From positions 1-50,313 of the forward strand of contig JBGTNB010000304.1 in assembly GCA_041743285.1 (NCBI GenBank): a DNA stretch of 50,313 nucleotides, read 5' to 3'. Position 1 is the stretch's first letter. Every line of letters starts with the position of its first letter. A program made the position numbers and the translations under genes. Origin of the DNA: Gemmatimonadaceae bacterium (lineage in GTDB: Bacteria; Gemmatimonadota; Gemmatimonadetes; Gemmatimonadales; Gemmatimonadaceae). Below are positions 37,587 through 47,541 of this stretch, piece by piece. The notes beneath the pieces are model-generated. The model made no database searches and was not told the origin of the DNA. It saw only the letters and a program-made list of their open reading frames with translations.

Positions 37587-39564
37587 GTGCGTCAGGCCAA
37601 GCCTGACTGCTCTTGTGAAATGAAAGGAGTTCACCATGTGAAATGCCTATGACACATGTAGCAGCGCAGGCGGCGTTGCCGAGCAATCGGCGGGTCGAAG
37701 CCCTGCAATGCGAAGCGGTGAGCCGTAACGCGAGTGAACTCTCGTAGGCCTCGAAACACTAAGATGGAAGCGGCCAGCCCGCCAGAGAGGGTGAAGCCAG
37801 AACAGGCGATGGGAACATAGGCGAACAGTTGCCTGGCTTCCCGGGGTAAAGAGAGACGGCGCGTCGCGAGAGAGAAGTCGAGGAACCTGAGAGACCCGGC
37901 GTGCTTGGGGTCGTACCTCTGCAGGTGAGGATCGGAATGCATAACGGTTCGCGCTGCACGGCCGGGAGTCGGAGGGGGAGGTAGTAGCGGGGAAGCGTCG
38001 TAACGGACGTGGAGCGAAGCTCCCCTGCCGACAGAATGCGGAGTCAGAAACGTGGAGAGCCGATTGCGGAGAAAACCCGCCACGACGGAAGAATCGATGC
38101 CAGTGCAAATGCCCAAGGCCTTCGTGGTCAACGGCAAGCGCCTGCCCGTGAACCTCTTCACGCTGAGACAGAAGCTCTACGAGAAAGCGAAGCGAGAGCC
38201 GACGTTCCGGTTTTACACGCTGTATGGCCTGATCGCTCGGCTCGACGTGCTTGAGGCAGCTTGGGTCCTGGTCGCCGATAACGGCGGCGCGCCAGGGGTG
38301 GATGGGGTCACGATCGAGGAGATTGAGGCCACACCCAGCGGAGTGACAACACTGGTGGCGACATTGCGTCAGGAGTTGCTCACGAAGCAGTACAAGCCAC
38401 AGGCGGTGCGCCGGGTATTCATCCTTAAGGACAATGGCAAACGACGGCCGCTCGGAATCCCGACGGTTCGGGACCGAGTGGTGCAGGCGGCGGCTCGCCT
38501 CATCCTGGAACCGATCTTTGAAGCGGACTTCCTGGATGCGTCGTATGGCTATCGTCCGGGTCGAAAGGCCCACGAGGCGCTCGCCGCGATCGAGCGCAAC
38601 GTGAAGGAGGGATACGCGGAGATTTACGATGCAGACCTGCAAGCCTATTTCGACACGATCCCGCACGACAAACTGTTGCAGTGTGTCGAGCGGCGGGTGG
38701 CAGACCGATCGGTGCTGCGCCTGCTCCGTCAGTGGCTGGAAGCGCTGGTGGAGGATCGTGACGAGAACGGACGGCCGAAGCGGAGCCGCCCGACCCAAGG
38801 GATCGGGACGCCACAGGGCGGAGTGATTTCCCCCCTGTTGGCGAATCTGTACCTGCACTGGTTCGATGTGAGGTTTCATCGGCAGCACGGTCCAGGCACG
38901 TGGGCGAAAGCCCGGCTGGTCCGCTACGCCGACGACTTCGTGATCATGGCGAAGTACATCGGGGATCGAATACCGGCGTGGGTGGAGGCAACGACCGAAG
39001 GGTGGCTTGGCCTTACGATCAATCGCGAGAAGACCCGGATCGTGCGGCTCGGACCGGAACACGGAGAGGGAACGGAGCGACTCGACTTTCTCGGCTACAC
39101 GTTTCGGTATGACTGGGATCGCTATGGGCGAGGGACGCGCTACTTCACGGCGGTTCCCTCGGCCAAAGCGCTCGCTCGGATGCAAGACGAACTACGGGCA
39201 CTGATCAGCAGTCGGCAGAACTACACACCGATACCGCACCTGATCAAGCGTGTGAATCGCAAGCTCCGAGGCTGGCAGAACTACTTCAGCTTTGGCCATC
39301 CGCGAGGTGCCTACCGAGTGATGAATGCCTTCGTAATCGCTAGACTGACGCGCCACCTACAACGTCGGAGTCAACGCCCCTGCTGTCCGCCGGCAGACAT
39401 GTCGTGGTATGGCTTCATCACCGGTCAACTGGGATTGCAGCCGCTCACGATGCGTGCAGCTCCTCGATAGTGCTCTTGTGAATCTGTCGGGAAAGCCGGA
39501 TGCGGGAAATCCGCCAGTCCGGTTTGACGAGGGGGACCTAACTTCGGTTAGGTCCCTACTCTAC
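37587..39564 (+). mobile_element. Complete group II intron (1978 nt), endonuclease-less, class C-like by insertion behaviour
   Basis: GTGCG at 37587-37591. Domain V-like AAGCCGGATGCGGGAAATCCGCCAGTCCGGTTT at 39493-39525 (AGC triad, GAAA loop). Domain VI-like GGGACCTAAC-TTCG-GTTAGGTCCC at 39533-39556, with an unpaired A at 39558, 7th nt from the 3-prime end (..CTAC at 39564). Removing the segment restores the sequence seen at 438-449. Confidence 0.85.
38052..39470 (+). CDS. Group II intron reverse transcriptase/maturase (no HNH endonuclease domain)
   Basis: RPLGIPTVRDRVVQ, YADDFVIM (YxDD) and the maturase X region RGWQNYFSFG. The C-terminus has no CxxC/HNH. An alternative ATG lies at 38097. 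Confidence 0.9.
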   Translation: MESRLRRKPATTEESMPVQMPKAFVVNGKRLPVNLFTLRQKLYEKAKREPTFRFYTLYGLIARLDVLEAAWVLVADNGGAPGVDGVTIEEIEATPSGVTTLVATLRQELLTKQYKPQAVRRVFILKDNGKRRPLGIPTVRDRVVQAAARLILEPIFEADFLDASYGYRPGRKAHEALAAIERNVKEGYAEIYDADLQAYFDTIPHDKLLQCVERRVADRSVLRLLRQWLEALVEDRDENGRPKRSRPTQGIGTPQGGVISPLLANLYLHWFDVRFHRQHGPGTWAKARLVRYADDFVIMAKYIGDRIPAWVEATTEGWLGLTINREKTRIVRLGPEHGEGTERLDFLGYTFRYDWDRYGRGTRYFTAVPSAKALARMQDELRALISSRQNYTPIPHLIKRVNRKLRGWQNYFSFGHPRGAYRVMNAFVIARLTRHLQRRSQRPCCPPADMSWYGFITGQLGLQPLTMRAAPR

Positions 39565-39780
39565 TGGTCAATTCGTTTTGCTTCCTTTCCCTGTTCATTG
39601 TCTTTCTCGTCCGTCGTCGTCTCCCCGCTCCTGCCCTCTGCGCTCCTCTGCGCACCCTGCGGTGAAGATTGCGGAGACTGGGCTGCAGCGAATCGAGTTC
39701 GGCGGTATCCAGACACAGTTAGACAGGCAGATTGATGGCCGGTTGGCCTTGACGGCCCGTCCGTTCGTCTGAAATGCAAT

Positions 39781-39810
39781 AGCGGCCGTACGCAATCGCG
39801 TACGGCCGCT
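39781..39810. terminator. Perfect GC-rich stem-loop downstream of the outer-membrane protein gene
   Basis: AGCGGCCGTACGC-AATC-GCGTACGGCCGCT has a 13-bp stem. The T-tract is weak in both directions. Confidence 0.45.
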
Positions 39811-39869
39811 GTGTTGCTGCTGGCGGACGAAAACGGAAACTGCCCGTCATCGCCCAGACCCGACCATCG

Positions 39870-40394
39870 TTAGAACGTGATGCCGATGCTGATCGGGGTG
39901 GTGGACATGGTGCCACCTTCGGTGCTGATCGCATGATAGCGGGCCTCGGCGAACATCTTGGCCGCCATCAGGTTGAAGCGGAATCCAGCGCCGGCGTTCC
40001 AGCCGATGTCACCAACGCGCTCGGCGTCAGGCACTTCGGCCTTTGACCAGTAGTATCCACCGCCAGCCATTGCGTACAGCTTGGCCGGTCCGATCGGCAC
40101 GATGTCGTAACCGAGCGCCGCCGTGGCGCCGATGGTGGACATATCCAGGTTGCCGCTCGCGAGCGGCAGGCGGCTGTACAGCCCGTCGACACGGACGTGC
40201 ACCGGCAGTGCAAGCAGTCCGGCGCGAACGCCAACTAATCCGTGGTAACCCTGGCTCGTCGCGTCGGCAAGTTCACCGGTCGGCAGGGTAAGACCGCCGC
40301 CGATGTTCAGCGACATCTGGGCCTGCGCCGGGGCGGCCGCAAGCGCGGCAGCGAAAGAGAGCCCGAGCGCAACGGCACGATGACAACGCTGCAT
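39870..40394 (-). CDS. Small outer-membrane beta-barrel protein (OmpW/OmpX-like)
   Basis: Signal peptide ..ALAAAPAQA, alternating beta-strand pattern, and a C-terminal ..ISIGITF ending in aromatic F. Confidence 0.65.
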   Translation of the reverse strand: MQRCHRAVALGLSFAAALAAAPAQAQMSLNIGGGLTLPTGELADATSQGYHGLVGVRAGLLALPVHVRVDGLYSRLPLASGNLDMSTIGATAALGYDIVPIGPAKLYAMAGGGYYWSKAEVPDAERVGDIGWNAGAGFRFNLMAAKMFAEARYHAISTEGGTMSTTPISIGITF

Positions 40395-40691
40395 AACTCA
40401 TCCTCCTGAGAGGTATCGTGTTTGACGGCGCGACCGCGGCCCGATTCGACTATCGAACCCGTTGCCCGATCCGCCCTGGCCGCCGCGCCCGAAGGGGCGG
40501 TGGCAAGCCACCAAATCGACGAACGGACTCAGCCGGAGGCAACGCGACCCGATTCACAACCGTTTCGGCAGTGGGGCTGAACTCACTTGCGTTTGTCAGG
40601 GCGTAAGGCGAAGTCTCCTGTTAGTGGCCAATCGACGCAGCTAAAAAAGCATTTTTTCGCACCACCTCTGTAAACATTTGAAACAGTCGTC

Positions 40692-41600
40692 ATGACCGAA
40701 ATCCTGACTTGGCCGGCGCTTCCGTACGATGAATGGCGCGAGAGCCATGAAACGCTGCACATGTGGACACAGATCGTAGGCAAGATCCGGCTGGCCAAGG
40801 CGCCGCCGTTGAACCACTGGTGGCACACCACGCTCAGCATAACGCCGCGCGGACTTGCCACGTCGGCGATTCCCCACGGGACGCGGAGCTTCGAGATCAC
40901 ATTTGATTTCATCGATCACGTCTTGCTGATCGAGGTGAGCGACGGCGCCGAGCGAAGAATTCAACTGGCGCCCCGCACCACTGCCGACTTTTACTTCGAA
41001 GTAATGGCACGTCTCGACGAACTGGGGATTCCCGTGACAGTCTGGCCTCGTCCGGTGGAGGTAGAAACTCCTATACGGTTCGATGAGGACCATGTGCATC
41101 AGTCGTATGATTCAGCCCAGGTCGAGCGGTTCCACGCTGCCCTCGTTCAAGCGGACCGAGCGCTGCAGCGCTTTCGCGGCCAGTTCATTGGAAAGTCGAG
41201 CCCCGTTCACTTCTTTTGGGGTGCATTCGACGTAGCGCTCACCCGATTTTCCGGCCGGCGGGCACCGGAGCATCCAGGGGGCGCTCCAAACGTGGGCCGC
41301 CATGTGATGGTCGAGGCCTACTCGCACGAAGTCGCGAGCTTTGGCTGGTGGCCGGGAAGTGCCGCGTATCCGGAGCCCGCCTTCTATGCTTACGCGTATC
41401 CGGAGCCGGCAGGCTTCAGTAGAGCGAAGGTAAGACCGGTTGCGGCGCAGTACCTTCAGGCTTTGGGTGAGTTCGTGCTTCCGTATGAGGCCGTACGTCT
41501 CGCCCCCGATCCGGACGCGGCAGTACTGACATTCTGTTCAGACGTGTACGAGGCAGCTGCCGATCTGGGAATGTGGAATCGTCAGGCGCTGGAACGGTGA
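40692..41600 (+). CDS. DUF5996-like protein
   Basis: N-terminus WPALPYDEWRESHETLHMWTQIVGKIRL matches my memory of DUF5996. The 302-aa ORF is intact. Confidence 0.5.
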   Translation: MTEILTWPALPYDEWRESHETLHMWTQIVGKIRLAKAPPLNHWWHTTLSITPRGLATSAIPHGTRSFEITFDFIDHVLLIEVSDGAERRIQLAPRTTADFYFEVMARLDELGIPVTVWPRPVEVETPIRFDEDHVHQSYDSAQVERFHAALVQADRALQRFRGQFIGKSSPVHFFWGAFDVALTRFSGRRAPEHPGGAPNVGRHVMVEAYSHEVASFGWWPGSAAYPEPAFYAYAYPEPAGFSRAKVRPVAAQYLQALGEFVLPYEAVRLAPDPDAAVLTFCSDVYEAAADLGMWNRQALER

Positions 41601-41867
41601 CCCGGCACCGCTAGCCTTTCGAACTCGAGCGACGGCAAGGCCGTCAAGGATCTGGTGGCATGCTTTGCAGCATCGGGAAGAATGCGGCGCGTCGAGCACG
41701 CTTCGCCTCGATCATCGTCGGCGTCGCCATAGGCGGGTGCGCGACGACGACCGGAGCTCCGCCGGCCGACGCCTCGCCTGACGATCCGCCGGCTCTTTCC
41801 GCGATTTCACAGGAGGATCTGCGCCGGGACCTGTTCGTGCTAGCCAGTCAGGCAATGCGTGGCCGCG
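41263..41867 (+). repeat. Direct repeat A (605 nt): 3-prime part of the DUF5996 gene, the intergenic region, and the first 208 nt of the M28 gene
   Basis: Aligns colinearly with 45649-46252, with roughly 25 substitutions and one 1-nt indel counted by eye. Confidence 0.85.
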
Positions 41868-41979
41868 CTGGCCAAGGCGCCGCCGTTGAACCACTGGTGG
41901 CATACGGCGCTCAGCATAACGCCGCGCGGACTTGCCACGTCGGCAATTCCCCACGGAAAGCGGAGCTTCGAGATCACAT
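41660..41979 (+). pseudogene. Truncated M28 peptidase N-terminus fused to an out-of-context DUF5996 gene fragment
   Basis: 41660-41867 duplicates 46045-46252. At 41868 the sequence switches to a ~94 percent copy of 40791-40902. The resulting 126-aa ORF is chimeric. Confidence 0.8.
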
Positions 41980-42146
41980 AGTCAGGAGCGCGTTCTCGCA
42001 AGAATTCGGGGCCCGTGGCGGCACCGGATTGGCCAGATAATGCTTTAGTGAGATTGGGTTTGCTTCGCAACGAGCATCGGGAAAGACACCGATTGACTGA
42101 ACAACGTTGCGAAAATTCTCATTGGCGCGTAATCGTCCTCCGGTTC

Positions 42147-42790
42147 TCACCTGACCGGTCGTACGTGAGCGTAAGGACCGTGCCCGGCGAAAGCCCAGCA
42201 CCGGCCAGCGACGCTCCCGGCGAGAATGGTGACGCCGACCTCGCGCATCCGGCGCACATCGCTTGCGCTGTTCGCGTAGGCTTCCTCGGCCGCCGCCGCG
42301 CGAGTCGACGACGTGTCGGTGGCGCGCTCGTCCACCTGCATGCGCCACCACTCCAACAGCCACGCCGACGCGTAAGTTGTGCGCTCATCGAGACGGATCG
42401 CGTCGCCGCTTAAGATCGCGCGAGCGGCGGAGTCGCCCAAAAGCATCACCGCCCGCGACACGGTGAGCGTCGGCGTGTACCACGCGCCGTTGTCGACGAA
42501 CTTGCGGTACACCGGTCGCGGGAGGCCTCGCAGAGGCGGTAGCGTGGCGTAGAACGCCTCGGCACTGCCAAAGTTCCTGATCTTCACAAAGTCCACGCGC
42601 AGCTACTCGAGTGAGCCGACCGTCGTTCCTGCCTCGAACGAGTCGCCGATGCCCATGCGGTAGGGGAACACTCAAAGCGCGAGCCGCCGGTCGCCGCTGG
42701 CGCTGCGCTCCACCACGTCCAGCCTTCCCGACCCGCCTCCGCCACGCCCTTTGTGTAACGATTTAGACTGACTACCAGGTTCACTAACCT
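42147..42790 (-). pseudogene. Amidohydrolase-family gene remnant
   Basis: Contains VDFVKI.., ..WYTPTLTV.. and ..DVRRMREVGVTILAGS, resembling metal-dependent amidohydrolases. In-frame stops lie upstream (..GSLE* and ..L*), the frame is lost after AGS, and no His ligands are visible. Confidence 0.5.
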
Positions 42791-42859
42791 CGCATAGCTG
42801 GATTTTAGGGTTACATTTGTTTACCGCCTACCTCCCACTGTTCTACTGCCTGTCGACGT

Positions 42860-45001
42860 ATGCTCAGAAAGACAGCTTATTTACTCATTAGCGCCGCGTT
42901 GCTAGCCGCTTGCGACGAGCCGCCAACAAGTGTCCGCCCGCCAATCGACGGCGGCCCTCTGCCAGCGCCCTCCGCTCTCACAGTGCCGTCCGAGCCGCAA
43001 CGCGTGCAGTGGCGATTCAGGCTCGACGGCGACTACTCCCTCCATAGCCCGGGTGTCGGTGCCGACGGCACAGTGTACGTCAGCATGTCGAACGGGAAGC
43101 TGTACGCGATCGCTCCCGACGGCACCCAGCGCTGGGTTATCCAGACAGGACAGGGCGGCGGCGTATACGGGCCGGTCTCGGTCGGAAGCGACGGCACGAT
43201 CTACGTCGCTGGCTTGGTGGCCGACCCCAGCGGCGCCGGAAGCACCGGTGCCATTTTCGCAATTACCCCGAGCGGAGCCCAGAAATGGGTGTTCAACGCT
43301 ACGAAGGACCTAATCATCGCTGGACCAAACGTCGGTCCGGACGGCAACATCTACGCGGTTGTGGACTACGCCGGGATCGGGCTCTTCTCGCTCACTCCCC
43401 TGGGGCAGCTTCGCTTCAGCACCGGTAAATTCACTGAGGTTGGGGCGCTTGGCCAAGAGATCGCCTTCGGCTCCGGTCAGCTGTATTTCGCGTTCGATAT
43501 GGGAGGAACCGGCACCCCCTCTTCGCTCTTCGGTTACGGTCTGAACGGCGTTAAGCGCTTTCAGGTTGGCGGCCCCGGGAACCCTTCCCAGCCCTCCGTC
43601 GGTCCGAACGGCAACGTGGTAATCCAGACCTTCCCGTCGAACGTTGGCTGGAGCTTGGCCGCTTACTCTCCCGCAGGCGCGCAAGTGTGGAGCTTCTACG
43701 AGTTTCCAGGAAACACCGAGGAGCACCCTCATGTCGGGCCGGACAACGTCGCCTATACCGTCCGCAATCTCTCGACTCTGTTCGCGTTCAATCCAAACGG
43801 AACCGTGCGGTGGCGCTACGTCGACTCCGGAATCATGTTCCAGCCGAAGGTGCGCCCCCTTAATGATGTGGTCTTCGTGGGGGGCCGGATCGGCTATGGA
43901 CAGCCTGGTTTCTTCCTGGCCGTCAGCACTAGCGGCACTCCTCGGTGGCGGGTGGATCTTCCTGACGAGCCGGGCTTCGCGGAATACGGGCAACTGGTGC
44001 CTGATACACGGCCTGTTTTCTCGCCAGATGGGAACACCGCCTACGCCGTGGCCGGGGTACTGGGAGACAACAACAGCGCGAACCCGTACGCCTTCCTGTA
44101 CGCGATCACTATCGGCGGCTCTGGCGGCACGCCTCCGCCACCGCCACCTCCGGCGAACAATCAGCCCCCGATAGCGCAGGCAAATGGGCCCTACAGTGGC
44201 AATGAAGGAGCGGCCATCGCCTTTTCCAGCGCGGGCACGAGCGATCCGAACGGCGACGCGCTTAGCTACCTCTGGAACTTCGGCGACGGAACCACCTCCA
44301 CGCTCGCTAATCCGAGCAAGTCGTACAAGGACAACGGAAGCTATACCATCAAGCTAACCGTCACCGACCCATTCGGGGCGAGCGGCACGTCCAGCACCAC
44401 GGCGACTACCTCCAACGTCGCGCCCACCGCAACCTGGTCAGCGCCGTCATCCATCACAGAGGGCTCCACCTACTCGCTCCAGCTCCAGAATGGCGCCGAT
44501 GCCGGGAGCGCGGATATCTCGACGCTGCAATACCGGTTTGACTGCGGTCGGGGTGCCGGCTGGACGGCCTGGAGCACCACCAAAAGCTTATCTTGCGCCA
44601 AGCTTCTGGACCAGCTCACATACAAGCTCACTATCCGGGGCGAGATCCGCGACAAGGACGGCGGTGTCCGGAGCTATTCCAAGCTGATGGCCGTCACGAA
44701 CGCGCCGCCTGTGGTGCAGCTCAGAGCGACCACGGCGACAACGCTGAAGGTGGGAACGCCTCTCGGAGTTTCCGGCTGGTTCTCCGACAAGGGGGTGAAC
44801 GATATGCCGTGGAGGTATGCCGTCAGCTGGGGCGATGGGAGCGTGAGCACCACAGGCAGCAGAAATTTGCAGGGGAGTGCCAATACGATCACCGCGAGCC
44901 ACGCCTACTCCGCGGCCGGCACGTTCTATGTCAATCTCCGCATCACCGATAAGGACGGCACGGTTGGTACGAAGCGAATCACTGTCACGATAACGCCGTA
45001 G
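42860..45001 (+). CDS. Lipoprotein with PQQ-like beta-propeller repeats and C-terminal PKD domains
   Basis: Lipobox ALLAAC, repeated DGT(V/I)YV..G.LYAI.PDGT..W units, a PPPPPPP linker, and PKD signatures WNFGDGTTS..YTIKLTVTD and WGDGS..FYVNLRITDKDG. Confidence 0.75.
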   Translation: MLRKTAYLLISAALLAACDEPPTSVRPPIDGGPLPAPSALTVPSEPQRVQWRFRLDGDYSLHSPGVGADGTVYVSMSNGKLYAIAPDGTQRWVIQTGQGGGVYGPVSVGSDGTIYVAGLVADPSGAGSTGAIFAITPSGAQKWVFNATKDLIIAGPNVGPDGNIYAVVDYAGIGLFSLTPLGQLRFSTGKFTEVGALGQEIAFGSGQLYFAFDMGGTGTPSSLFGYGLNGVKRFQVGGPGNPSQPSVGPNGNVVIQTFPSNVGWSLAAYSPAGAQVWSFYEFPGNTEEHPHVGPDNVAYTVRNLSTLFAFNPNGTVRWRYVDSGIMFQPKVRPLNDVVFVGGRIGYGQPGFFLAVSTSGTPRWRVDLPDEPGFAEYGQLVPDTRPVFSPDGNTAYAVAGVLGDNNSANPYAFLYAITIGGSGGTPPPPPPPANNQPPIAQANGPYSGNEGAAIAFSSAGTSDPNGDALSYLWNFGDGTTSTLANPSKSYKDNGSYTIKLTVTDPFGASGTSSTTATTSNVAPTATWSAPSSITEGSTYSLQLQNGADAGSADISTLQYRFDCGRGAGWTAWSTTKSLSCAKLLDQLTYKLTIRGEIRDKDGGVRSYSKLMAVTNAPPVVQLRATTATTLKVGTPLGVSGWFSDKGVNDMPWRYAVSWGDGSVSTTGSRNLQGSANTITASHAYSAAGTFYVNLRITDKDGTVGTKRITVTITP

Positions 45002-45189
45002 CAGGCCTCGGCGATCGCGCTGCTCATCGCATCGCAGGCCTCGCCACGTACTGCCGGCGAGGCGTGCGACGACGGTAGACCCAATGGTGGCGTTGAGGAC
45101 GGAGTGAGTGGGGAATTGGAGAAGGGAGTGTGGCAGACTCCGCTCAAGGCGCGTGCAGCGACCGGCAACTGCAGCTCAAAGTGCTAATG

Positions 45190-45648
45190 CGTGGGCACTA
45201 GCTGGGATCCCACCGTTCCCGAAGACCCCTTCTCATCTTCTGACCCGATTCCGACCACGATGTCCCGCACAACTTTCATGGATGGCGGGCGTCTCGCGGG
45301 GTCTCTTTCAATCGCGGTGAATCACGCCTCGCGAGTGCGCGACCTCCAGCGCCTCGGCGATCTGACGAGCGATTGCGAGTGCTTCGGACAGCGGTAGCCG
45401 GCCCCGTGTCAGCGGCTGGGCGAGCGTTTCTCCTTCGACCAGCTCATGCACGAGAAAGTGGAGACCGTCAGCTTCCTCGAGGCGATAGATCGCTTCGATG
45501 TGCGGATGGTTGAGCGAGGCCAGAGCGAGCGCCGCTCTTTTCAGACGACACATGAGAGTCATGTCCTTTGCGACATTCGGTGGGACGAGCTTGATAGCGA
45601 CGTCGCGCTTGAGCCGCTGGTCGCAGGCCCGGTAGATGCTGCCGATTC
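45190..45648 (-). pseudogene. Ser/Thr protein kinase remnant (truncated at both ends, frameshifted)
   Basis: GGIGSIYRA..RDVAIKLV..LNHPHIEAIY..LVHELVEGETL..AHSRGVIHRD, then a stop. Downstream kinase-like pieces (MKVVRD..GTVGSQ) continue in other frames. The 5-prime end is cut within the G-loop at the repeat B junction. Confidence 0.7.
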
Positions 45649-45986
45649 CACCGGAGCATCCAGGGGGCGCTCCAAACGTGGGCCGCCATGTGATGGTCGA
45701 GGCCTACTCGCATGAAGTCGCGAGCTTTGGCTGGTGGCCGGGAAGTGCCGCGTATCCGGAGCCCGCCTTCTATGCTTACGCGTATCCGGAACCGGCAGGC
45801 TTCAATCGAGTGAGGGTAAGACCAGTTGCGGCGCAGTACCTTCAGGCTTTGGGTGAGTTCGTGCTTCCGTATGAGGCCGTACGTCTCGCCCTCGATCCTG
45901 ACGCGGCAGTACTGACATTCTGTTCAGACGTGTACGAGGCAGCTGCCGATCTGGGAATGTGGAATCGTCAGGCGCTGGAACGCTAA
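45649..45986 (+). pseudogene. 3-prime fragment of a second DUF5996 gene copy
   Basis: Encodes PEHPGGAPNVGRHVMVEAYSHEVASFGWWPG...NRQALER, matching residues ~191-302 of 40692-41600. There is no upstream coding continuity. Confidence 0.8.
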
Positions 45987-46252
45987 CCCGGTATTTCTGC
46001 CTTTCGAACTCGAGCGACGGCAAGGCCGTCAAGGATCTGGTGGCATGCTATGCAGCGTCGGGAAGAATGCGGCACGTCGAGCACGCTTCGCCTCGATCAT
46101 CGCCGGCGTCGCCATAAGCGGGTGCGCGACGACGACCGGAGCTCCGCCGGCCGACGCCTCGCCTGACGATCCGCCGGCTCTTTCCGCGATTTCACAGGAG
46201 GATCTGCGCCGAGACCTGTTCGTGCTAGCCAGTCAGGCAATGCGTGGCCGCG
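45649..46252 (+). repeat. Direct repeat B (604 nt), partner of 41263-41867
   Basis: See repeat A. This copy continues into the intact M28 gene. Confidence 0.85.
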
Positions 46253-47541
46253 AGGCGGGCACCATCGATGAGCTTCGGGCTTCGGCATGGATCGCCGAGC
46301 AGGCACGAGCCGCCGGACTCGAACCGATGGGTGACGATGGGACGTATTTTCAGTTCTGGCCGATGCGCCGTGCGCGCATATCGACTGACAGCCGGGTAAT
46401 CCTCGCAGGCACGCCGCTCGCAATCCCGGAAGGCGCGGTGGTGGTGACGCCGGCCGATGCGCGCATCGACGCACCGATGGTTTTCGTGGGCGAAGGGAAG
46501 CGGGCAGACCTGGCCGGCAAGGACATTCGCGGGCGGGTGGTTGCGGCGGTGCTCTCGCATCCGGAGGGCGCCCCGCCGCTCGGTCCGAATCTCAGCCCGC
46601 GCCGTTATGCGATGAGCGCCGTCAGGCAGCGCGCCGCGTTTCTGATAGAGAACGGTGCTACGGCGGTCCTGCTCGTTTCGGATTCCGTGGCCGATGGACA
46701 GTTCCAGAACATTGCCGCCGGTTGGGCGAGGGGCAGCTACGACATCGATGACGCGGAAGGGGAGTCCGCCGGCTCACGCCCGCCAGTTATCTGGGTGCGG
46801 CGCTCCGCGCTCGATTTCGCAAGGCAGTCGGGCGCGCGGCTGGTGGCCGAGCTCCAGCGCGAGCGTTTCGTCGTCCCCTCGGTGAACGTATTGGCGCGGG
46901 CGCCCGGCAGCGATCCCCGGCTGCGCGACGAGCACGTGCTGTACAGTGCCCACCAGGATGCGCTCGGCGTTCGCTATTCCTGGGATGGCGACTCTGTGTG
47001 GACCGGAGCCGACGACAACGCCACAACCAGTGTCGCGCTACTGGCGATCGGACGGGCGTTCGTTCGCGTGCCAGCGCCTCGTTCAGTCCTCTTCGTCTGG
47101 CACGGTGCGGAGGAAGTGGGGCTGCTCGGGTCGTACTACCACGTGGCGCATCCCGTCGTGCCGCTGTCACGCGTGGTGGCGGTTCTCAATGGCGACATGA
47201 TCGGCCGCAACCATCCGGATACCGCCGCGCTGCTGGGATCCCAGCCACCTAACCGCAATGCCCCGTCGCTGGTCGAGATGGCGCTTTCGGCGAACGCACG
47301 GGTCTCGCGGTTCGTTCTCGATAGCAGTTGGGACCAGCCCGGCCATCCGGAAAACTTCTTTCGCCGCAGCGATCACTGGCCTTACGTTCAAGCCGATGTG
47401 CCTTCCATATATTTCACGGCGCTGCTGCACTCAGACTACCATACGCCGCGCGACGATCCCGAAGGCATCGACTACGGCAAACTCACACGCATGGCGCGTT
47501 GGATGTATGCCACCGGCTGGACTGCTGCTTCCGCCCGGTGA
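46045..47541 (+). CDS. M28 family metallopeptidase (lipoprotein)
   Basis: Lipobox AISGC, a PA-domain-like insert, and HGAEEVGLLGSYY and DHWPY motifs typical of M28 aminopeptidases. Confidence 0.8.
   Translation: MLCSVGKNAARRARFASIIAGVAISGCATTTGAPPADASPDDPPALSAISQEDLRRDLFVLASQAMRGREAGTIDELRASAWIAEQARAAGLEPMGDDGTYFQFWPMRRARISTDSRVILAGTPLAIPEGAVVVTPADARIDAPMVFVGEGKRADLAGKDIRGRVVAAVLSHPEGAPPLGPNLSPRRYAMSAVRQRAAFLIENGATAVLLVSDSVADGQFQNIAAGWARGSYDIDDAEGESAGSRPPVIWVRRSALDFARQSGARLVAELQRERFVVPSVNVLARAPGSDPRLRDEHVLYSAHQDALGVRYSWDGDSVWTGADDNATTSVALLAIGRAFVRVPAPRSVLFVWHGAEEVGLLGSYYHVAHPVVPLSRVVAVLNGDMIGRNHPDTAALLGSQPPNRNAPSLVEMALSANARVSRFVLDSSWDQPGHPENFFRRSDHWPYVQADVPSIYFTALLHSDYHTPRDDPEGIDYGKLTRMARWMYATGWTAASAR

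What the first reader, a model, noticed from the sequence alone, without database searches (positions are those of the whole stretch)
41263..46252. Scrambled segmental duplication: ~605-nt direct repeats, diverged by about 4 percent, bracket 3.8 kb of gene debris plus one intact gene
The DUF5996 3-prime end, the intergenic region and the M28 5-prime end occur twice (41263-41867 and 45649-46252, about 25 mismatches and one indel). Copy A follows the intact DUF5996 gene and copy B precedes the intact M28 gene, so a simple ancestral DUF5996-M28 locus has been split. At 41868 copy A switches abruptly to a ~94 percent copy of an upstream piece of the same DUF5996 gene (40791-40902). At 45648/45649 copy B abuts the G-loop of a decayed kinase gene on the other strand. 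Direct repeats flanking foreign DNA are the footprint expected from Campbell-type single-crossover integration of a circular molecule carrying a homologous segment. The 4 percent divergence and the extra scrambled fragment suggest the donor was a related but non-identical genome. The alternative is a chimeric metagenome assembly joining two strains.
Basis: partly seen in the sequence, partly recalled or inferred. Interest (0 to 1): 0.65.

Follow-up and report, generated by a model that had tools for sequence, protein, structure and literature searches.

The report
Duplicated gene junction holding captured DNA
In an uncultured hot-spring bacterium, 4.4 kb that includes a foreign surface-lipoprotein gene sits between two neighbouring genes, flanked by a duplicated piece of their junction so both genes stay whole; this is an ordinary product of known recombination.

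Summary
The repeats are real. A (41263-41867) and B (45649-46252) match at 583/605. 41868-41979 is a 106/112 copy of 40791-40902.

The "scrambled" piece fits a simple geometry. A 1,078-bp unit (DUF5996 nt 99 to M28 nt 208) lies twice head-to-tail, joined at 41867/41868. In the second unit, DUF5996 nt 212-571 is replaced by a 3,669-bp mosaic:
- an unknown 190 nt (P1)
- an amidohydrolase fragment
- an intact propeller/PKD lipoprotein gene
- a kinase N-lobe fragment

Four same-genus genomes and two metagenome contigs carry the uninterrupted DUF5996-M28 locus.

All three novel junctions recur in independent per-run assemblies of three or four hot-spring samples, so a plain assembly chimera is unlikely. 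A free 4.4-kb circle cannot be strictly excluded.

Single-crossover integration of an end-joined circle gives this topology. So does in-situ tandem duplication followed by insertion into the dead copy. I slightly favour the first.

The 3.5% divergence between the copies is seen only in this contig. In one sample the copies are identical and in another they are mosaic, which suggests gene conversion.

This is a known kind of event and of modest interest. One oddity remains: a soil metagenome joins the same insert end to a different site in M28.

The parts
40692..41600 (+). Intact DUF5996 gene (302 aa). Its last 338 nt belong to repeat copy A.
   Evidence: Pfam PF19459, E 3.8e-134, profile 1-295 of 296. 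94% aa identity to the G004 orthologue.
40790..41867 (+). First copy of the 1,078-bp duplication unit (DUF5996 nt 99 through M28 nt 208).
   Evidence: Repeat spacings are 1077 nt (D3 family) and 4385/4386 nt (A/B). 4386-1077 = 3309 = 3669 inserted - 360 deleted.
41263..41867 (+). Repeat copy A: DUF5996 3' end (functional here), 59-nt intergenic region and M28 nt 1-208 (a dead fragment here).
   Evidence: 583/605 identity to B. X4 contig 41196-41505 links it to the unique part of DUF5996.
41867..41868 (.). J1: head-to-tail joint of M28 nt 208 to DUF5996 nt 99, with 1 nt of microhomology (G).
   Evidence: Sequence context. Contigs spanning it: X1 316 nt (41838-42153), X2 59 nt at depth 12.3, X4 59 nt at depth 8.6. 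The 60-mer across J1 is unique to this genome among the 5 genomes of the genus.
41868..41979 (+). D3: DUF5996 nt 100-211, the start of the second (dead) unit. It lies inside the chimeric ORF 41660-42040.
   Evidence: 106/112 identity to 40791-40902.
41979..41980 (.). J2: DUF5996 nt 211 joined to the mosaic insert, with 2 nt or less of microhomology.
   Evidence: Spanned by an X1 316-nt contig, an X2 2,314-nt contig (41915-44228, 0 mismatches) and an X3 271-nt contig.
41980..42169 (.). P1: 190 nt of unknown, apparently non-coding DNA (GC 0.55). Its left end is joined to a different partner in a soil metagenome.
   Evidence: No Pfam or Rfam match. 96% identical to L019 30-221, which is preceded there by M28 46734-46763.
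42150..42805 (-). Internal fragment of an amidohydrolase gene, cut at both ends and with an in-frame stop.
   Evidence: The ORF 42147-42596(-) hits proteins that carry Amidohydro_1, at about residues 270-390 of about 480 aa. There is no parent copy in the MAG.
42806..45311 (+). Block holding the intact gene 42860-45001 (713 aa): lipoprotein signal (LAAC lipobox), PQQ-like beta-propeller, proline linker and PKD domains. A hairpin lies at 45032-45069.
   Evidence: Pfam PKD_4, E 5.6e-34. Homologues carry PF13360 and PKD. Sequence. 97.6% identical to L019 610-3112. Absent from 4 same-genus genomes, and no full-length orthologue in 300 genomes of the family.
45312..45648 (-). Ser/Thr kinase N-lobe fragment (G-loop to HRD), cut at both ends.
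   Evidence: Pfam Pkinase, E 1.8e-15, profile 9-123 of 263. In run X21 a 96%-identical kinase continues past the breakpoint.
45648..45649 (.). J3: kinase fragment joined to DUF5996 nt 572. The microhomology is about 5 nt (CACCG) if the X21 kinase represents the parent.
   Evidence: Spanned by X1 178 nt (45553-45730), X2 1,478 nt (44201-45678) and X3 722 nt (45367-46088).
45649..46252 (+). Repeat copy B: DUF5996 nt 572-909 (a dead fragment), the intergenic region and M28 nt 1-208 (functional here).
46045..47541 (+). Intact M28 peptidase lipoprotein gene (498 aa).
   Evidence: Pfam PF04389, E 2e-34. 91% identity over all 498 aa to the G004 orthologue.

Best explanation
This is a real chromosomal structural variant in a Gemmatimonadaceae population. 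4,386 bp lie between DUF5996 and M28, bracketed by a direct duplication of the gene junction (DUF5996 3' end, intergenic region, M28 5' end). The most likely route has three steps. (1) In some cell of the population, 360 bp inside DUF5996 were replaced by a patchwork of captured DNA through illegitimate joining (J2, J3). (2) A linear piece of that allele, running from DUF5996 nt 99 to M28 nt 208, was closed into a circle by end joining (J1, 1-nt microhomology). The genome encodes Ku and LigD. (3) The circle recombined once, by homologous recombination within the 605-bp junction segment, with a chromosome carrying the intact locus (Campbell-type integration). Because the shared segment spans the end of one gene and the start of the next, one intact copy of each gene survives and a complete lipoprotein gene is added. 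The dead halves then decayed, and gene conversion between the repeats has homogenised them in some lineages. Shown: the geometry, the empty site in relatives, the junctions in independent samples, and the NHEJ genes. Inferred: the order of events, the circle, and the donor.
For: Geometry: all repeat spacings fit one 1,078-bp unit plus a 3,669-for-360-bp replacement. Empty site: present in G001-G004, L033 and L034. Junctions: J1, J2 and J3 recur in per-run Logan assemblies of X1-X4. Depth in X2: flank contigs 8-12, insert 6.7-10, repeat unitig 20.2, which means the repeat is two-copy and the insert about one per genome. Any linear genome holding both J1 and J3 must hold the repeat twice. End joining: three Ku loci and two to three LigD-pol loci in the MAG. 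Precedent: in E. coli, 56 of 60 integrants of DNA with one homologous arm were single crossovers of re-circularised molecules and gave 109-950-bp duplications (PMC3240628). Hints of an allelic origin: 16 of the 28 A-vs-B/D3 differences fall at sites where both states occur among relatives. D3 is as far from A (5.4%) as G004 is (4.5%). Co-occurring strains differ by about 6%. The PKD block is 97.6-97.8% identical in a soil lineage whose flanking genes are about 95% identical. Gene conversion: the J3-linked copy B is A-like over 41405-41513 in X3 and almost wholly A-like in X2.
Against: An in-situ tandem duplication followed by insertion gives the same sequence and needs no DUF5996-null donor. 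The donor allele (DUF5996 nt 1-98 running into D3-type sequence) was not seen in any run. Unique changes are about 3 times commoner in the non-functional halves (14 vs 5). The neutral parts have similar loads (D3 2.7%, B's DUF5996/intergenic part 2.5%, A's M28 part 1.9%). That pattern fits decay after one event from identical copies. J1 has only 1 nt of microhomology. Linkage of A-type SNPs to J1 rests on the MAG contig alone, because the k=31 contigs break 40 nt short. The window's A states 41718T and 41732G appear in none of X1-X4, so the exact haplotypes could be a strain mosaic. X4 shows J1 but not P1, J2 or J3.
Confidence: 0.45

Rival explanations
1. In-situ route. A spontaneous 1,078-bp tandem duplication arose by illegitimate exchange between sister chromosomes at J1. 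This made a promoter-less, 5'-truncated second DUF5996 copy, which is a neutral landing pad. A later double-strand break in that copy was repaired by end joining, which captured the 3.67-kb mosaic and lost 360 bp.
For: It gives the same geometry. It needs only two events and no transfer. NHEJ genes are present. The excess of unique changes in the dead halves, with similar loads of 1.9-2.7%, fits decay from initially identical copies. X4 holds J1, but all its D3-region contigs continue into native DUF5996 sequence and P1, J2 and J3 are missing, which is what a plain duplication allele would show. The X2 copies are nearly identical.
Against: Many A-vs-B/D3 differences coincide with polymorphisms seen in relatives (16/28), and D3 is as divergent from A as another species is. 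The X4 gaps may be coverage drop-outs at 4-8x in a 65-68% GC stretch, since its contigs end without loose ends. A related cassette exists in another lineage at the same locus with a different joint.
Confidence: 0.33
2. The loop is not in the chromosome as drawn. The 4,386 bp exist as a free circle (a small plasmid or excision product) beside an uninterrupted chromosome, or as a tandem array of more than one unit, and the assembler threaded the loop once.
For: k=31 contigs cannot link the repeat haplotypes to their exits. In X1 the J3-linked DUF5996 3' end is the only one seen, and it feeds both M28 5' types. The unique part of DUF5996 (40822-41262) is absent in X1 although the insert is at 3-6x.
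Against: The loop has no replication or mobility gene and no plasmid or phage similarity. In X2 the insert depth equals or is below the per-strain flank depth, which is unlike a plasmid. The MAG assembler, presumably using k above 41, joined A-type sequence to J1. A's M28 fragment carries 4 unique changes against 1 in B's, which suggests that A's copy is the dead one.
Confidence: 0.1
3. The P1-to-PKD block is a non-autonomous mobile cassette with a fixed left end. It has landed twice, independently, in the DUF5996-M28 locus.
For: The same P1 end (ATAGTCAGG) is joined to DUF5996 nt 211 here and to M28 nt 719 in Logan contig L019 from a soil run. There, the run's own M28 contigs break at exactly that 30-mer. 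The gene's neighbourhood is not conserved in distant homologues.
Against: There are no terminal inverted repeats, target duplication, transposase or integrase, and no second copy in the MAG. The right ends differ. The evidence is only two contexts, one of them resting on a 30-nt overlap.
Confidence: 0.08
4. Pure assembly chimera joining two strains, with no such junctions in nature.
For: The MAG is fragmented (641 contigs, 61% complete). The samples hold several strains 2-6% apart.
Against: J1, J2 and J3 and the whole insert (41915-45678, 0 mismatches) are reproduced in independent per-run assemblies.
Confidence: 0.03

Closest known systems
Campbell-type single-crossover integration of a re-circularised DNA fragment (duplication class of integrants in Amarir-Bouhram et al. 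2011, PMC3240628)
   Same: Direct duplication of the homologous segment (109-950 bp in that study, 605 bp here) brackets the foreign DNA. An illegitimate closing joint lies next to one repeat. The recipient loses no DNA.
   Different: Here the 'foreign' circle is itself a rearranged copy of the same locus from the population. No circle or donor allele was observed. This is a natural, old event with diverged repeats, not a laboratory construct.
Homology-facilitated illegitimate recombination (HFIR) in naturally transformable bacteria
   Same: One homologous anchor plus one illegitimate joint brings in foreign DNA. It would give this product if the anchor lay in M28 downstream of nt 208.
   Different: HFIR typically couples the insertion with a deletion of similar size and shows 3-10-bp microhomology (PMC3240628, introduction). 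Here the recipient loses nothing and J1 has 1 nt of microhomology.
Spontaneous tandem duplication with a short-homology join point, followed by NHEJ capture of DNA at a break
   Same: Head-to-tail unit, a 1-nt join, a patchwork of unrelated gene fragments, and joints with 0-5 nt of microhomology. Ku and LigD are present.
   Different: Tandem duplications are usually short-lived. This one carries 3.5% divergence between copies, at least in this contig, and occurs in several samples.
Insertion sequences, transposons, integron cassettes, ICEs
   Same: They add an accessory gene to a conserved locus, and the insert is variable between strains.
   Different: No transposase, integrase, inverted repeats, target-site duplication or attC-like site was found. 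The flanking repeat is 605 bp of host genes.

Membership tests
Campbell-type (single-crossover) integration product | Direct repeats of a host segment flank the inserted DNA | tested here: met
   A and B are 583/605 identical and lie in the same orientation.
Campbell-type (single-crossover) integration product | Relatives carry the empty site with one copy of the segment | tested here: met
   G001-G004, L033 and L034 have DUF5996, a 59-nt spacer and M28.
Campbell-type (single-crossover) integration product | One repeat plus the insert closes into a circle with a single closing joint | tested here: met
   B, J1, D3, the insert and J3 form a 4,386-bp loop. J1 is seen in X1, X2 and X4.
Campbell-type (single-crossover) integration product | The circular or donor form is observed, or a crossover point is visible in hybrid repeats | tested here: inconclusive
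   No donor allele was seen. The switch in derived states between 41665 and 41689 (Fisher p=0.015) coincides with the gene boundary, so it cannot be told apart from decay.
Homology-facilitated illegitimate recombination | Illegitimate joint with 3-10 bp of microhomology | tested here: not met
   J1 has 1 nt. J3 has about 5 nt, but J3 belongs to the earlier insertion.
Homology-facilitated illegitimate recombination | The insertion is coupled with deletion of recipient DNA | tested here: not met
   Both flanking genes are full length (302 and 498 aa, as in G004). The 360-bp loss is in the duplicated copy only.
Tandem duplication | Head-to-tail join, with all copies in register at one unit length | tested here: met
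   Spacing of 1077 nt for D3. The A/B spacing of 4386 nt equals 1077 + 3669 - 360.
Transposon / IS / ICE / integron | Transposase or integrase gene, terminal inverted repeats, target-site duplication | tested here: not met
   Pfam on all ORFs of 60 aa or more in the insert gives only PKD and kinase matches. There are no terminal inverted repeats and no TSD at J2 or J3.
Plasmid or phage DNA | Similarity to known plasmids or phages, or a replication gene | tested here: not met
   Only 97-nt PKD-domain hits in Streptomyces plasmids, and no phage hit.
Metagenome assembly chimera | The novel junctions are absent from independent data | tested here: not met
   J1, J2 and J3 are present in separate per-run assemblies. 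Physical linkage over more than 31 nt was not testable, because only k=31 contigs were available.

The most novel reading that the evidence does not exclude
The P1-to-PKD block is a non-autonomous cassette with a fixed left end. It is repeatedly captured at, or moves within, the DUF5996-M28 locus of related Gemmatimonadaceae (DUF5996 nt 211 here, M28 nt 719 in a soil population), by a mechanism that leaves no inverted repeats or target duplications. That would be a locus-specific capture site or a new kind of mobilisation.
Probability: 0.1. Interest if true: 0.55.

Novelty: new member of a known kind. Interest (0 to 1): 0.3.

Why it matters
This is a clean natural example of how a bacterium can gain an accessory gene between two essential-looking neighbours without breaking either: the gene junction is duplicated. 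The same variant can be followed across samples, with signs of gene conversion between the repeats and several structural sub-variants of the insert. That makes the locus a small, tractable marker for recombination, end joining and strain mixing in an uncultured hot-spring Gemmatimonadaceae population. It does not reveal a new mechanism.

Tried and rejected
- Mobile-element reading: no transposase or integrase, no terminal inverted repeats, no target duplication.
- Link to the nearby group II intron, or an RNA gene in P1: Rfam finds only the intron at 37626-39564 and nothing in the insert or in L019.
- Plasmid or phage origin: nothing beyond PKD-domain hits.
- Parent copies of the insert pieces in the MAG: none. 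Only 33-50% identical kinases were found.
- Other contexts for P1: a 30-nt pattern search found nothing in JGI metagenome contigs or in GTDB genomes.
- Independent longer assemblies of the junction ORFs, looked up by exact protein: none on record.
- Conserved PKD-kinase adjacency in distant homologues, which would show the kinase piece came with the gene: not seen.
- Copy number from depth: only X2 is clean enough. Depths of short unitigs do not add up (in-flows 25, repeat 20, out-flows 35), so no finer inference was drawn.
- Phasing A or B SNPs to the junctions: impossible with k=31 contigs. The last SNP lies 40 nt from J1.
Full report
**Observation**

A (41263-41867) and B (45649-46252) are 583/605 identical, with 21 mismatches and one 1-nt indel. 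41868-41979 is a 106/112 copy of 40791-40902. In the whole MAG the 605-nt segment occurs only at these two places. The window is the entire contig C304 of a MAG with 641 contigs at 61% completeness.

Pfam confirms these genes and fragments:
- an intact DUF5996 gene (40692-41600)
- a DUF5996 C-terminal fragment at the start of B
- an intact M28 peptidase (46045-47541)
- an intact PKD-domain protein (42860-45001)
- a kinase piece on the minus strand, from the G-loop (abutting 45648/45649) to HRD, followed by a stop

**Geometry**

The "scrambled" fragment has a simple explanation. Copy A ends at M28 nt 208, and the next base is DUF5996 nt 99-100. So 41867/41868 (J1) is a head-to-tail joint of a 1,078-bp unit (40790-41867), with 1 nt of microhomology.

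The second unit starts with DUF5996 nt 100-211 (D3). It then has DUF5996 nt 212-571 replaced by 3,669 bp (41980-45648), and it resumes at DUF5996 nt 572 as copy B. The spacings agree: 4386 - 1077 = 3309 = 3669 - 360.

Because the duplicated segment covers the 3' end of one gene, the spacer and the 5' end of the next, one full copy of each gene survives. They are 302 and 498 aa, the same lengths as in G004, and M28 is 91% identical to its G004 orthologue.

**The insert is a patchwork**

| Coordinates | Strand | Content |
|---|---|---|
| 41980-42169 (P1) | . | No coding or RNA signal |
| about 42150-42805 | - | Internal amidohydrolase fragment; relatives carry Amidohydro_1, matched at residues about 270-390 |
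| 42806-45311 | + | Intact gene for a lipoprotein (LAAC lipobox) with a PQQ-like propeller and PKD domains |
| 45312-45648 | - | Kinase N-lobe fragment |

There is no transposase or integrase, no terminal inverted repeat and no target duplication. There is no plasmid or phage similarity and no second copy in the MAG. Base composition is host-like (GC3 0.76). The genome encodes three Ku and two to three LigD-polymerase homologues.

**Relatives**

The organism is a Gemmatimonadaceae bacterium, going by the names on same-genus proteins. All four other genomes of the genus have DUF5996, a 59-nt spacer and M28, with the same neighbours (OMP upstream, OMP and Omp85 downstream), and none has the insert.

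Metagenome contigs L033 (93% identical) and L034 (90% identical) are also uninterrupted. The J1 60-mer is unique to this genome within the genus. The PKD gene has no full-length orthologue in 300 genomes of the family.

**Is it an assembly artefact?**

Only k=31 per-run contigs (Logan) of four hot-spring runs from one study were available.

| Junction | Runs whose contigs span it |
|---|---|
| J1 | X1 (316-nt contig 41838-42153, which also crosses J2), X2 (59 nt, depth 12.3), X4 (59 nt, depth 8.6) |
| J2 | X1, X2, X3 |
| J3 | X1, X2, X3 |

In X2, two contigs cover 41915-45678 with no mismatch. X2 flank contigs have depth 8-12, the insert 6.7-10, and the repeat is one 579-nt unitig at depth 20.2.

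Any linear genome that holds both J1 and J3 must hold the repeat twice. The only alternative is a free 4,386-bp circle, or a tandem array, beside an uninterrupted chromosome. A circle lacks any replication gene, and it would have to sit at one copy or fewer per chromosome. I rate the circle or array alternative at about 10%, and a pure chimera at about 3%.

**Caveats on the haplotypes**

The samples contain several strains 2-6% apart. No single run shows both the window's A-type and B-type DUF5996 3' ends:
- X2 has one mosaic type for both copies.
- X1 and X3 show only the J3-linked B-type. In X3 it carries an A-like tract across 41405-41513.
- X4 shows only the A-type.

The window's 41718T and 41732G appear in none of the four runs. 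So the 3.5% divergence is attested only by the MAG contig. The linkage of A-type sequence to J1 could not be checked, because the last SNP lies 40 nt from the joint. The mosaic copy-B variants are best read as gene conversion between the repeats, or as allele exchange.

**Origin**

Differences were polarised with six outgroups. Unique derived states number 14 in the dead halves (B's DUF5996/spacer part and A's M28 part) and 5 in the live halves (binomial p of about 0.015 on the first count). The neutral parts carry similar loads: D3 2.7%, B's DUF5996/spacer part 2.5%, A's M28 part 1.9%. This fits decay after a single event.

On the other hand, 16 of the 28 differences fall at sites where both states occur among relatives. 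D3 is as far from A (5.4%) as G004 is (4.5%). That points to allelic input.

Three routes give the identical product:
- single-crossover integration of an end-joined circle cut from a DUF5996-disrupted allele
- the equivalent one-homologous-end integration of a linear fragment
- an in-situ tandem duplication followed by break repair that captured DNA in the dead copy

An E. coli study found that 56 of 60 integrants of DNA with one homologous arm were single crossovers of re-circularised molecules. These gave 109-950-bp duplications, whereas classical HFIR gives deletions and 3-10-bp microhomology (PMC3240628). I give the Campbell route 0.45 and the in-situ route 0.33.

X4 would favour duplication first. 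It has J1, no P1, J2 or J3, and its D3 region runs on into native DUF5996 sequence. But its coverage is only 4-8x, and its contigs end without loose ends.

**Unexplained**

A Logan contig from a soil metagenome of another study (L019, SRR9952635) carries P1 (96% identical) and the PKD block (97.6% identical). There, P1's left end, the same ATAGTCAGG, is joined to M28 nt 719. That run's own M28 contigs break at exactly that 30-mer.

L019 also differs from the window in three other ways:
- it has 215 extra nt after P1
- it has a different 142 nt where the window has most of the amidohydrolase piece
- it leaves the window sequence at 45311, as does an X3 contig

In that run a 96%-identical kinase continues past J3, so the window's kinase piece came from such a gene. 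One fixed end with two partners is not expected from random breakage. I keep a mobile or locus-specific cassette as the novel reading, at about 10%.

The heptamer AGTCAGG that begins P1 also occurs 22 nt before J1 in both M28 5' copies, and nowhere else in the window. This may be chance.

**Function**

Both flanking genes stay intact. Two chimeric ORFs (41660-42040 and 45636-45986) are probably by-products. Contigs about 97% identical to the PKD lipoprotein gene, covering 42833-44971, occur in an ice metatranscriptome (run X22), so a close relative of the gene is transcribed.

**Verdict**

The structure is real and very probably chromosomal. The mechanism is of a known kind, and the exact route is unresolved. 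Interest is modest.

Noticed in passing
window 37626-39564: A complete group II intron (Rfam RF02005 and RF00029, with an RT/maturase ORF at 38052-39470) is polymorphic. An X4 contig joins 37586 to 39565 (skipping 1,978 nt, depth 13.8), and the relatives L032 and L034 lack it.
   Followed up: partly
L019 1-30 and window 46734-46763 / 41978-41980: In a soil metagenome (SRR9952635) the same left end of the insert (ATAGTCAGG) is joined to M28 nt 719 instead of DUF5996 nt 211. The middle of the insert also differs there (215 nt extra, and 142 nt in place of 608 nt).
   Followed up: partly
window 41846, 41980, 46231: AGTCAGG occurs only three times in the 50 kb: as the first 7 nt of the insert, and 22 nt upstream of the J1 position in both M28 5' copies. 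This is either a trace of an older microhomology joint or chance.
   Followed up: no
window 45311/45312: An X3 contig and L019 continue from 45311 into GGCATGTGCGAATTA[A/G]CTGGCGAATTTT rather than into the kinase fragment. The joint between the PKD tail and the kinase piece is therefore itself polymorphic.
   Followed up: no
window 42833-44971: Contigs about 97% identical, covering almost exactly the PKD lipoprotein gene, are present in an ice metatranscriptome (run X22). The gene also occurs in soil and permafrost runs at near identity, while the flanking locus is more diverged.
   Followed up: partly
G000 contigs C238, C76, C352, C175: The MAG carries three Ku homologues and two to three LigD polymerase-domain homologues, as do the other genomes of the genus. 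This is an unusually rich end-joining kit.
   Followed up: partly
window 38110-41775 in run X1: In run X1 this 3.7-kb stretch (intron, OMP, DUF5996) is almost absent at 97% identity or above, although the outer flanks and the insert are at 3-6x. That strain has a different or missing left neighbourhood.
   Followed up: no
window 45032-45069: A 14-bp hairpin (93% complementary, 10-nt loop) lies 31 nt after the PKD gene's stop codon. It is a likely terminator that travelled with the gene.
   Followed up: no
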